Source: an uncultured Haloferula sp. (lineage in GTDB: Bacteria > Verrucomicrobiota > Verrucomicrobiia > Verrucomicrobiales > Akkermansiaceae). From it: a stretch of DNA of 64,000 bases. Location: the NCBI GenBank assembly GCA_965652295.1, contig CBFGTS010000001.1, positions 224,001 to 288,000 of the forward strand, read 5' to 3'. A program made the position numbers. Shown here piece by piece: positions 24,001-27,000 of the stretch. How positions within the stretch are numbered: position 1 is the first letter of the stretch; every line of letters begins with the position of its first letter.

Positions 24001-27000
24001 AGGGAGATGGAGCCTGGGCCGGTCTGGATCTCGGCAGCCCGAAAAAAATCACTTCGATTCGCTACAGCCCTCGCAATGCCGACAACTGGTTGGCCCGAAT
24101 GGTGGGCGGCGTGTTCCAGGCTGCGGACAATCCGGCGTTTACCAATCCGGTGACGCTCTTCGTGGTGCCCTCGATTCCGGTGATTCACACCTACACCATC
24201 GCGTCCGTGGAAGACGTGCCCAGCTACCGATACGTGCGGTATCTCTCGCCGTCGGGAGCCCATTGCAACATATCGGAGGCGGAATTCTACGGAGTCACGG
24301 TCCCGACGGCACCCTCTGCGGTGGCGATTTCCCCTCAACCCGCCAGTGCCGAGCTGGAATGGATTTCCGTTGCCACGGCGGTTCAGTACCGGGTGAAGCG
24401 CGCGACGACCATCGGCGGTCCCTATCAGCTGGTGGGCGAAACGCTCGGCACCCGCTCTTACGACGATCAGGGACTGGATCCCTACACGACGTACTACTAT
24501 GTGGTGAGTGCGGTCAATGAAGCCGGGGAAAGCCCGCCCTCAAGCGAGGTCGTGAAACAGGATGCCTACGGTGCCTGGCTCATCGCCGCGGGCGGAACCT
24601 TGGAGGGTCCGGGCAGTGGATTCGATGAAAAGCTCGACGGCACGGGACCTGCGAACGGAGCTCGCTACATGATGCCGGATGGCGTGGAAGTCCGTGCCGC
24701 CGCGGCCTCCCGCGAGGTCGGTGGAGTCGTCCGGAATGATCCAAACGTGACCGTTTCGCTGTGGCGGTCCGACGATCTTACTGGGTGGGCGGAGGTGCCT
24801 TTCGTGGATTCCTCCGACCAAAGCAACGTGGACGAAGGCTTCCGCCGGGTGGGGGCGGTGATCGAGGGGCCCTTCGACGGGCAGCCGGTGTTCTACCGCT
24901 TCGAGTTCATCCGTTGATCATTTACTGGCCTCGGCCTGCACCCGGTGGATAGTTGATTTAAAAAGATGTTCGAAAGAACACCTTTTTGTCTTGATGTCCG
25001 GAATGGTCGTGATAGAAGCATCATCCGTGGACCGTGAATCGCGGCCCCCATCCCAGCAACAGCCTGACATCATCATGAAAGCCGATAGCGCCACCCTGCC
25101 CGAAACCGATGCCCGCGCCGATGCTCCACACGAGGGGTCCCGCGATGCAGCCAATGCAGCCTATCTGAACCGCCTGCCGCAGCATGCGATTTACAAGCCG
25201 AACTCGCGTGGGAGTGGCGGCGTCGTCCGCTTCGAGCTGAACCTTTTCAAGAATTCCGTTTTCGTCGATGCGGCGCCGCAGGTCGGCGAGCGCCAGTTCG
25301 ATTGGGACGCGAAGCTGACGATGAAATGGGGCATTCCCGATCTCGGAGCCGCGCTTGCCGTGCTGCAAGGTCGTCAGCCGGCAGCGAACCTCTTCCACCG
25401 TTCCGAGCACTCGAACAGCGCCTGCGAACTCGTCGCCCGGGCCGATGCCGAGCGCGCGCCGTATCTGCTGAGCCTGTCGCGGCAGGAGGAGGACAAGTCG
25501 GTGAAGAAGGTGACGATCCCCTTGACTCACGCCGAGGCCGCCGTGCTGGAAACCGTGCTCCACCGCGCCGTGGAACGGCTGGTGGGGTGGTGACGCTTCT
25601 GCGTCATGCACCTCCCTCGCAGCTGTTGGCGTGGCGGCGGATTGCATCCGCCATGCCGCACTGATCGATGGAGGCGCTGCGGGGAAGGCGTCTGCTCAGG
25701 ATCGGGTTTCGGCGACTAAATCCGTCGCGACCGCCCGAACTCCGAGACCGCCCTTGTCGAACAGCTTTGGTGCATCGGCGGGACGATGTCGGTGAGTGGC
25801 TCGGGGCACAACGAAACCGTTGCACAACGAAGTTGTTGTTGAGCCCTCTCTTTCTCAGTTCGCGACGATGTTCACCAGGCGTCCGGGGACGACGATGATC
25901 TTGCGGATGGTCTTGCCGGCGAGTTGCTCCTGGACCTTGTCGGTTGCCTGGGCGGCGGCTTCGATGTCTTCCTTCGGTGCGTCTTTTGGGACGGTGATCT
26001 TGTCGCGGAGCTTGCCGTTGATTTGGACGACGATCTCGATCTCCGACTCGATGAGCGCGGCTTCGTCGTGCTGCGGCCAGGGTTGCTTGGCGAGCTGGCC
26101 GGAGTTGCCGATGAGGCGGTGGATTTCCTCACTCAGGTGAGGAGCGAAGGGGTTCAGGACACTGAGGAGCAGGGTGAACTCTTTCAGCGGGACGACCTCG
26201 GCGGCGGTGAAGGCGTTGGTGCAGACCATCATCTGCGAGATGGCGGTGTTGAAGGACATGCGGGCGATGTCGTCGGTGACCTTCTTGACGGTCTCGTGGA
26301 CGACCTTGAGCAGGGCCTTGTCGGTGCAGGGGACGTCCTGGAGTTTTTTGGAAACGGTCCACTCGCCGGCCTGGTCCTGTTCCATGGCCACGCGCCAGAC
26401 GCGGGCGAGGAAGCGGGAAACGCCTTCGACGCCTTTCATCTGCCACGGCTTCACTTCGGTGAGCGGGCCCATGAACATTTCGTAGAGGCGCAGGGCATCG
26501 GCCCCGTACTCGCGGACGACTTCGTCGGGGTTGACGACGTTGCCGCGGGACTTGGACATTTTCTGCCCGTCCTCGCCGAGGATGAGGCCCTGGTTGACGA
26601 GCTTCTGGAAGGGCTCGTTGGTGGAAAGGTGGCCGAGGTCGTGGAGGACCTTGTGCCAGAAGCGGGCGTAGAGGAGGTGGAGGACGGCGTGCTCGGTGCC
26701 GCCGACGTAGAGATCGACCATGCCGGTCGCGCTGCGCGCGGAGTGATCAGTGCCGAGTGCCGAGTGATCAGTGGAACTCTTGCCGGCGACGCCGGACCAG
26801 TATTGTTCCGCTTCGCGGGAGATGAAGCGGTCGTTGTTACGGGGATCGCAGTAGCGGAGGTAGTACCAGCAGGAGCCGGCCCACTGGGGCATGGTGTTGG
26901 TTTCGCGCTCGAACTCGTCGCTGTAGGCGATCCAGTCGGTGGCCTTGACCAGCGGCCCGCGGGGGTCGCCGGTGGGCTTGAAGTCCTCCATTTCGGGCTG

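What a model noticed while it worked through the whole genome (the two positions that open the first line are those of the whole stretch)
25075..25593. A bacterial Whirly protein: full-length homologue of the 'plant-specific' organellar ssDNA-binding WHIRLY family in Verr [...]
g00191 (172 aa) is a sequence homologue of plant WHIRLY proteins over the whole domain, not only a look-alike fold, and is predicted to form the Whirly tetramer. It belongs to a well-conserved family found patchily in Verrucomicrobiales, so WHIRLY is not plant-specific and has prokaryotic relatives.
Evidence so far: 664 homologues; their profile hits only plant WHY1/2/3 structures, best E 2e-10. Model pLDDT 85, top fold matches WHY1/WHY2 E 1.4e-8. 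Four-copy model score 0.94 against best control 0.34, runs agree in 98% of contacts, pLDDT 91; the mark was reached by 20 of 30 solved homodimers and 1 of 23 monomers, and a like complex is solved, so this shows likeness. 8 of 61 order genomes; 189 of 219 bacterial carriers are Verrucomicrobiota, 57 archaea; 684 representatives at E<=0.001. Reviews call WHIRLY plant-specific (PMC9070903) or arising in the Chloroplastida ancestor (PMC11135702); passages read, calls 45, 180, 181; searches 16, 22, 43.
(Added by a program. Inside this text positions count along the whole contig: contig position 224,001 is position 1 of the stretch shown here. "Call 12" and the like, gene names such as g00115 and contig names such as C1 are that model's own, and its searches are not shown. 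The text may have been shortened before it was handed on; [...] marks where a part breaks off. The agent that wrote the report below was given it as the finding of a first reader that could run no searches.)

Follow-up and report, generated by a model that had tools for sequence, protein, structure and literature searches.

The report
SOS-controlled bacterial Whirly with phage relatives
A bacterium carries a relative of the plant Whirly DNA-binding proteins behind the same repressor site as its DNA-repair genes, and the wider family is common in large bacterial viruses, some of which resemble the plant protein more closely than this bacterial copy does.

Summary
Confirmed: 25075-25593(+) encodes a 172-aa sequence homologue of plant WHIRLY (phmmer E 3e-8; Pfam over cut-off; fold E 8e-9). 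New here: (1) a perfect TGTTC-N4-GAACA palindrome lies 94 bp upstream; of six such sites in the genome the others precede lexA, recA, ssb, a Y-family polymerase operon and one unclear ORF; it precedes Whirly in 14 of 14 carriers of this family, 0 of 27 in family f5. A second Verrucomicrobiota lineage places Whirly behind ssb. (2) The family is widespread in large phages (29 of 37 viral loci), Micrarchaeota and non-plant eukaryotes (Thecamonas, Amoeba, Arcella). (3) The one plant sequence groups with phage proteins (98/95), not with Verrucomicrobiales (AU p 0.014) or protists (p 0.011). (4) Family profiles reach trypanosome MRP1/2 by sequence. Best reading: a LexA-controlled tetrameric ssDNA-binding accessory to SSB. 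Binding and induction are untested, the tree is unrooted, and Pfam/UniProt already label such proteins automatically. The scan reported the SOS reading before on another genome (e1-7422042).

The parts
25075..25593 (+). Whirly-family gene, 172 aa; low-confidence N-terminal ~30 residues, then two four-strand-plus-helix repeats ending in GW; no acidic tail
24967..24980 (.). Perfect TGTTC-N4-GAACA palindrome, inferred LexA (SOS) operator, 94 bp before the ATG
20187..24917 (+). Upstream neighbour, GH85 multidomain glycoside hydrolase; not part of the system (neighbours vary among orthologues)
25855..28575 (-). Downstream convergent neighbour, leucyl-tRNA synthetase; shows a chromosomal, non-prophage setting

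Best explanation
The gene encodes a homotetrameric Whirly protein that binds single-stranded DNA with little sequence preference and serves in the DNA-damage response. LexA represses it through the palindrome at 24967-24980; after damage RecA-triggered LexA cleavage would induce it with recA, ssb and the translesion polymerase operon, and the tetramer would coat or melt exposed ssDNA as an accessory to, not a substitute for, SSB, much as plant WHY guards organelle DNA against mis-repair. Shown: homology, fold, conserved residues, the site and its conservation, the other genes behind the site. Inferred: LexA binding, induction, tetramer, DNA binding, role in repair. Origin (separate, less sure, about 0.5): a family spread by large phages and kept patchily by cells; plant WHIRLY comes from a different, phage-rich branch.
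For: Homology and fold. His108 invariant in 150 of 150 rows including the plant row (the His after StWhy2 F138), Tyr40 138, Trp77 139, Asp89 135, Glu154 137 of 150. Four-copy model 0.94 vs best control 0.00, 20 of 30 homodimers and 1 of 23 monomers reach the mark, at least 91% contacts agree, pLDDT at least 90; likeness to solved WHY only. Six perfect sites in G000; 14, 47, 46 and 10 bp before LexA, RecA, SSB and an ORF heading an IMS-family gene, 94 bp before Whirly, one unclear. In five other genomes 11 of 15 examined sites (of 37) precede LexA, RecA, S24, IMS or SSB genes. Site with at most 1 mismatch upstream of Whirly in 14 of 14 carriers of family f1 (12 perfect; spacer and distance vary), 2 of 2 f6; 0 of 62 downstream control windows; background 19 of 4731 upstream windows. 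ssb directly upstream of Whirly in 13 of 31 loci (12 of 30 distinct) of a second Verrucomicrobiota lineage. Plant WHY binds ssDNA and protects against ciprofloxacin damage (PMC3245945, passages).
Against: No site before Whirly in 0 of 27 f5, 1 of 8 f3, 0 of 1 f7, 0 of 10 loci of the second lineage, although f5 and f3 genomes use the same box for lexA/recA: SOS control is lineage-limited. The count of sites alone is not enriched (6 against 2.9 expected; spacers 2 and 5 give 12 and 8). Kin are not independent. KGKAAL, called important for ssDNA binding and 24-mer formation, is absent. The nearest-fold relatives MRP1/2 and ChmC prefer RNA. Core net charge is only +2 (plant row +3). Phage neighbourhoods show no adjacent helicase, primase or polymerase; in 15 loci Whirly closes a glycosyltransferase operon. 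The gene is missing from 193 of 251 order genomes searched. No consensus promoter was found.
Confidence: 0.72

Rival explanations
1. It is mainly an RNA-binding or RNA-annealing protein, like trypanosome MRP1/2 or jumbo-phage ChmC, acting on R-loops or transcripts during stress.
For: MRP1/2 rank with WHY in the fold search (E 2.7e-8) and are reached by family profiles; ChmC with this fold prefers RNA (10.1101/2023.09.22.559000, passages); plant WHY also acts on RNA. Some phage loci have RNA ligase or RtcB nearby.
Against: Regulon partners and the ssb operon point to DNA; the window's clade profile hits WHY and not MRP.
Confidence: 0.13
2. It is a domesticated phage gene whose LexA box reflects a damage-triggered phage or anti-phage role (binding invading or prophage ssDNA), not host repair.
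For: Family common in large phages; patchy in cells (58 of 251, 36 of 351, 24 of 201); an integrase also lies behind such a box in G112.
Against: Single copy, genome-like GC, conserved codon pattern, housekeeping neighbours, no mobile or defence genes recurring nearby; the 29 viral Whirly loci carry no such box (best 2 or more mismatches).
Confidence: 0.09
3. It is the replicative SSB substitute of its carriers.
For: 11 of 111 diverse homologues end in an acidic tail with a terminal Phe, like SSB tails (resemblance recalled); plant WHY has an acidic/aromatic tail (PMC6963530).
Against: G000 has a canonical ssb; 18 of 26 viral carriers and 9 of 9 near-complete ones encode PF00436 SSB; the window protein has no tail; most relatives lack the gene.
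Confidence: 0.02
4. On origin: Verrucomicrobia gave Whirly to green plants, or took it from them.
For: Verrucomicrobiota hold many cellular carriers; single-sequence E 3e-8 to WHY2.
Against: Tree places the plant row in a phage-rich clade; plant + Verrucomicrobiales clade rejected, p-AU 0.014; equal-depth profiles score WHY at 28-43 bits (Verrucomicrobiales) against 84-100 bits (phage-rich clade).
Confidence: 0.04

Closest known systems
Plant WHIRLY (WHY1/2/3, p24/PBF-2; Pfam PF08536)
   Same: Sequence homology, two four-strand-plus-helix repeats in one chain, invariant His and Trp, C-terminal GW, predicted tetramer, link to DNA damage
   Different: No transit peptide, no KGKAAL, no HDP insertion, no acidic/aromatic tail; bacterial, behind a LexA-type box; belongs to another branch than the plant protein
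Trypanosoma brucei MRP1/MRP2 (2gia; Pfam PF09387)
   Same: Same fold (E 2.7e-8); reached by family profiles, E 1.4e-4 and 4.7e-5/1.8e-3; 5 of 111 members hit PF09387 at E up to 0.05
   Different: Heterotetramer binding guide RNA in mitochondria; the window's own clade profile does not hit it; a review says it lacks sequence homology with WHY (PMC7549692)
Jumbo-phage ChmC (Chimalliviridae)
   Same: Phage protein with Whirly fold, homotetramer, binds single-stranded nucleic acid
   Different: [quoted passage not shown]
PC4-like/Pur-alpha superfamily
   Same: Same repeat unit; Pur-alpha follows in the fold search at E 2.5e-4
   Different: Fold only; prokaryotic members described so far are dimers of one repeat or Pur types
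Verrucomicrobia LexA regulon (Erill et al. 2016; paper not held, title seen in reference lists, motif recalled)
   Same: Same palindrome before lexA, recA, ssb, Y-family polymerases
   Different: Whirly as a member was not found in any text I could read; the paper's tables could list it as a hypothetical gene

Membership tests
WHIRLY (PF08536) | Score over Pfam gathering cut-off; PDB sequence hits to WHY | tested here: met
   31.4 bits vs 23; six PDB hits, all WHY
WHIRLY (PF08536) | Tandem four-strand-plus-helix repeats in one chain (type I PC4-like) | tested here: met
   Model E36-41, E49-56, E61-71, E81-85, H87-97, E103-109, E114-121, E130-137, E143-150, H152-170; Foldseek WHY1/2 top
WHIRLY (PF08536) | Homotetramer | tested here: inconclusive
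   Prediction only: 0.94 vs best control 0.00; 20 of 30 homodimers, 1 of 23 monomers pass; may be memory of solved WHY
Higher-plant WHIRLY subfamily | KGKAAL motif (24-mer lysine) | tested here: not met
   Absent in window protein and 0 of 9 of its clade; KGK present in 6 of 18 rows of the phage-rich clade. Algal WHIRLY-like proteins also lack it (PMC9070903)
Higher-plant WHIRLY subfamily | Organelle transit peptide and acidic/aromatic tail | tested here: not met
   N-terminus acidic (6 D/E in 25); chain ends at GW
WHIRLY (PF08536) | Binds ssDNA | not testable with these tools
   Only conservation and context; the DNA-contact table of Cappadocia 2010 was not held
LexA/SOS regulon | Operator shared with lexA and recA, conserved before orthologues | tested here: met
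   met in families f1 and f6, not in f5
LexA/SOS regulon | LexA binding and damage induction | not testable with these tools
   Needs EMSA and RT-qPCR
Kinetoplastid MRP (PF09387) | Pfam MRP match for the window protein | tested here: not met
   No PF09387 match up to E 1; clade profile no hit
ChmC | Sequence relationship to Chimalliviridae ChmC | tested here: not met
   No tblastn match among 50,697 phage records for P0001 or P0242; no PHROG for P0001

The most novel reading that the evidence does not exclude
WHIRLY and trypanosome MRP1/2 descend from one family of single-strand-binding proteins carried by large tailed phages. Eukaryotes captured it at least twice for their organelles: green plants from a myovirus-rich branch that already shows the YKGK start, YDW and HDP marks, and amoebozoans/apusomonads (perhaps also kinetoplastids) from another branch; bacteria such as this one domesticated it into the SOS response. 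WHIRLY would then join the phage-derived parts of organellar DNA machinery instead of being a plant invention.
Probability: 0.45. Interest if true: 0.87.

Novelty: new variant of a known kind. Interest (0 to 1): 0.74.

Why it matters
Reviews call WHIRLY plant-specific or unique to plants (PMC9070903, PMC6963530), a eukaryotic component (PMC4758235) that arose in the Chloroplastida ancestor (PMC11135702). Sequence homologues in phages, bacteria, archaea and protists give the protein an origin that can be tested, link it by sequence to the RNA-editing factor MRP1/2, and offer a simple bacterial model, with a predicted LexA switch, for the debated ancestral job of a multifunctional plant protein. 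It also adds a candidate new ssDNA-binding member to the SOS regulon.

Tried and rejected
SSB replacement: rejected. Link to a family A polymerase or Twinkle-like replisome in carrier phages: no PF00476 over cut-off in 26 records; the primase-helicase of G255 matches DnaG primases only. Cultured phages: no tblastn hit for P0001 or P0242, no meaningful PHROG for 17 proteins; single-protein scan of viral contigs found none. Thermoplasmata as cellular carriers of the plant-like branch: 1 clear and 1 marginal match in 201 genomes; the two loci share neighbours with viral contigs, so probably viral contigs in bins. Conserved operon in Verrucomicrobiales: none beyond variable neighbours. Consensus promoter/terminator: none. 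Expression: no RNA holder listed. More plant, algal or MRP rows for the tree: the 'longer' search returned two plant proteins only; P0291 (internal deletion and duplication) and the fragment L060 were left out, 64 near-duplicates dropped, 71 rows hand-picked. Papers not held: Cappadocia 2010, Erill 2016. Literature searches that showed no description of prokaryotic or phage sequence homologues of WHIRLY: (listings only; subscription papers are not covered; supplements were not read).

Full report
1. Observation. Window 25075-25593(+) is an open frame of 172 aa, between a GH85 hydrolase gene and a convergent leucyl-tRNA synthetase gene. phmmer against the PDB gives six matches up to E 10, all plant WHY1/2/3, best 3.4e-8. 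Pfam Whirly scores 31.4 bits against a cut-off of 23 over profile positions 32-136. There are 664 homologues near in length and 260 representatives at 50% identity with E up to 0.001. The model built on 111 diverse rows has pLDDT 90 and two four-strand-plus-helix repeats; Foldseek ranks WHY1/WHY2 first (E 8e-9), T. brucei MRP1/2 next (2.7e-8), Pur-alpha far behind (2.5e-4). A four-copy model scores 0.94 against a best control of 0.00, with at least 91% contact agreement and pLDDT at least 90; 20 of 30 solved homodimers and 1 of 23 monomers reach this mark, and since WHY tetramers are solved it shows likeness only. Against 13 orthologues codon positions differ by 0.26, 0.18 and 0.55, and gene GC (0.65) matches the genome (0.635). 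Sequence similarity is weakest in the first strands, and KGKAAL is absent.

2. A LexA-type operator. Bases 24967-24980 are a perfect TGTTC-N4-GAACA palindrome 94 bp before the ATG. I recalled this as the Verrucomicrobia LexA motif; the paper (Erill 2016) is not held (title seen in reference lists), so I tested it on genomes. G000 has six perfect sites (2.9 expected; other spacers give 0-12, so the count itself says nothing). Their positions do: 14 bp before LexA, 47 bp before RecA, 46 bp before SSB, 10 bp before an ORF without Pfam match that heads an IMS-family polymerase gene (imuA-imuB by recall), before Whirly, and one before no recognisable gene. In five other genomes, 11 of 15 examined sites (of 37) precede LexA (3), RecA (2), S24 peptidases (3), IMS polymerases (2) or SSB (1); the rest precede an integrase, a SNF2 protein and two ORFs without match. 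Of 58 carriers in the order I examined 52: a site with at most one mismatch lies within 300 bp upstream of the Whirly match in 14 of 14 carriers of the window's family f1 (12 perfect, with varying spacer letters and distances of 54-210 bp), 2 of 2 f6, 1 of 8 f3, 0 of 27 f5, 0 of 1 f7; also 0 of 10 loci of a second lineage; downstream control windows 0 of 62. Background in G000 is 19 of 4731 upstream windows. Kin are not independent, but arms fixed while spacers and flanks vary is what selection on an operator gives. SOS control is thus lineage-limited: f5 and f3 use the box for lexA and recA but mostly not for Whirly.

3. A second link to ssDNA. In the phylum 36 of 351 genomes match, most in a second, divergent lineage. 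There ssb lies directly upstream on the same strand in 13 of 31 loci (12 of 30 distinct; L093 and L202 give the same protein), against 0 of 52 Verrucomicrobiales and 0 of 19 Micrarchaeota loci. Verrucomicrobiales neighbours vary.

4. The wider family. A degenerate pattern from the conserved core gave 37 viral loci, 29 of which (27 different proteins) encode family members, many on contigs of 100-195 kb. One carrier, G255, is a 194,631-bp record with terminal repeats, terminase, portal, capsid, tail sheath, baseplate, amidase, its own polymerase and RecA-like gene (113 of 198 called ORFs scanned): a bacteriophage. Neighbourhoods (142 representative neighbours scanned): the end of a glycosyltransferase operon in one clade of 15 loci; AAA ATPase, ClpP, exonuclease, HIRAN and topoisomerase zinc ribbons in 8 loci; dUTPase, ribonucleotide reductase, UDG, thymidylate kinase, SpoVG elsewhere; no adjacent helicase, primase or polymerase. 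Canonical SSB is present in 18 of 26 records searched (of 29) and 9 of 9 near-complete ones, so Whirly does not replace it. Micrarchaeota carry it in 24 of 201 genomes, Thermoplasmatota in 1 clear case of 201, and those loci share neighbours with viral contigs. UniProt already names one phage protein 'Whirly transcription factor' and the Atlas has automatic Whirly clusters of Verrucomicrobiota and viral clusters. Non-plant eukaryotes have it too: Thecamonas trahens (P0197), Amoeba proteus (P0240), Arcella intermedia (P0288) and one more EukProt protein, with basic, acid-poor N-terminal extensions like mitochondrial presequences (crude count, no predictor). Four to five further rows were labelled protist by me from such extensions or closeness; their source is unnamed.

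5. Relationships. FastTree on 150 rows (64 near-duplicates, P0291 and L060 left out) puts the plant row (Salvia WHY1, P0290) in a 20-row clade with 10 viral rows (96), nine protist rows in a different clade with two viral rows (95), and Verrucomicrobiales apart (98). IQ-TREE LG+C20 on 71 chosen rows and 146 columns agrees: plant with 8 viral, 2 Thermoplasmata-bin and 6 unnamed rows at 98/95; protists with 2 viral and 6 unnamed rows at 100/99; bootstrap not fully settled, backbone open. AU tests, run after the tree was seen, reject plant + protists (p 0.011) and plant + Verrucomicrobiales (p 0.014). Only one plant row is in the tree and its branch is long (1.45). Independent of the tree, profiles of similar depth score the six solved plant proteins at 84-100 bits over the full domain for the phage-rich clade (its first members were picked by eye for plant likeness), 28-43 bits for Verrucomicrobiales, 40-43 for the Micrarchaeota-type set, 25-31 for the protist clade. 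Shared marks of plants and that clade: [YF]KG in 15 of 18, KGK 6 of 18, HDP 11 of 18, Tyr before DW 16 of 18, against 0, 0, 0-1 and 0-1 in the other two clades. The 111-row profile hits MRP1 at E 1.4e-4, the next non-WHY hit being 0.83; the 12-row protist-clade profile hits MRP1 at 4.7e-5 and MRP2 at 1.8e-3, the 24-row version at 2.3e-4 and 0.015. MRP could not be placed in a tree. The tree is unrooted: direction from phage or prokaryote to eukaryote is inferred from two eukaryotic groups sitting in separate, diverse viral clades; an unsampled cellular donor is possible.

6. Mechanism. Most likely (0.72) a LexA-repressed tetramer that binds ssDNA exposed after damage, alongside SSB and RecA. 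His108 is invariant in 150 of 150 rows including the plant row; Tyr40, Lys41, Trp77, Lys80, Asp89 and Glu154 are kept in 114-139 of 150. That these are DNA contacts in WHY2 is recalled, not read. Lacking the second lysine of KGKAAL, which builds 24-mers without affecting binding to short DNA (PMC3245945), it probably works as a plain tetramer. Rivals: RNA binding (0.13), phage-related role (0.09), SSB substitute (0.02); on origin, exchange between Verrucomicrobia and plants (0.04).

7. What is in print (passages read by term search unless noted; no supplements). Plant-specific or unique to plants: PMC9070903, PMC6963530; eukaryotic component, 'mainly in the plant kingdom': PMC4758235; origin in Chloroplastida: PMC11135702; no homologue in a cyanobacterium: PMC10909546. 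No sequence homology between MRP1/2 and WHY: PMC7549692. Against full novelty: PMC13392464 says the Whirly/Pur-alpha family occurs in all three domains; the ChmC preprint describes a phage Whirly fold and speaks loosely of bacterial Whirly-related proteins; Pfam and UniProt label members automatically; from memory Pfam groups Whirly and MRP in one clan. Two protist mitochondrial proteome papers do not mention Whirly or MRP1 in the main text. Searches listed no paper describing prokaryotic, phage or protist sequence homologues or SOS control; subscription papers and supplements, notably Erill 2016, were not seen. An earlier agent of this scan reached the SOS reading on another genome; I read that after my own tests, and it is not independent evidence.

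8. Verdict. A real, conserved bacterial Whirly, a member of PF08536 but not of the higher-plant subfamily; predicted SOS regulon member in its family; one twig of a phage-rich family whose other branches hold plant WHIRLY and protist proteins and reach MRP1/2. New variant of a known kind; interest 0.74.

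Noticed in passing
L163, L168-L172, L174, L175, L179, L180, L188, L230, about 60-130 bp upstream of the Whirly match: Family f5 carriers lacking the LexA box share another conserved upstream block with an imperfect ATGCTG..CAGCAT palindrome just before a promoter-like pair; may be a different operator or only shared descent.
   Followed up: no
L202-L211, L252-L256, L093: ssb-whirly gene pair in part of a second Verrucomicrobiota lineage.
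   Followed up: yes
L006, L008, L010, L012, L014, L016, L019, L020, L023, L024, L026, L030, L031, L033, L034: A clade of 160-180 kb phages ends a conserved glycosyltransferase operon with Whirly; L003, L015, L038 have nucleotide-sugar enzymes upstream. Possible DNA or virion glycosylation module.
   Followed up: partly
P0142, P0185, P0189, P0202, P0205, P0225, P0234, P0241, P0246, P0259, P0272 (also P0231, P0257): Whirly homologues with acidic tails ending in Phe, like the SSB partner-binding tail; sources unnamed.
   Followed up: partly
L055:4827-5324: Very divergent Whirly-like gene on a Candidatus Manganitrophus plasmid, with a UDG-like neighbour.
   Followed up: no
G000:C9:194580 (L234:1981): Sixth perfect LexA-type box with no recognisable gene behind it.
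   Followed up: partly
L242:1515-2666 (G112): Tyrosine integrase directly behind a LexA-type box.
   Followed up: no
G253:C1:75991, 93579, 108902: One 191-kb phage carries three SSB genes plus Whirly.
   Followed up: no
L048, L103, P0143, P0147: Micrarchaeota-type Whirly proteins with 100-200 residue P/Q/S-rich disordered N-terminal extensions.
   Followed up: no
window 20187-24917: 1576-aa GH85 endo-beta-N-acetylglucosaminidase-like protein with LamG, FN3 and F5/8 domains.
   Followed up: no
L022:2294-3145, L284:14565-15551: Short reverse-transcriptase-like genes near Whirly in plant-like-clade phages.
   Followed up: no
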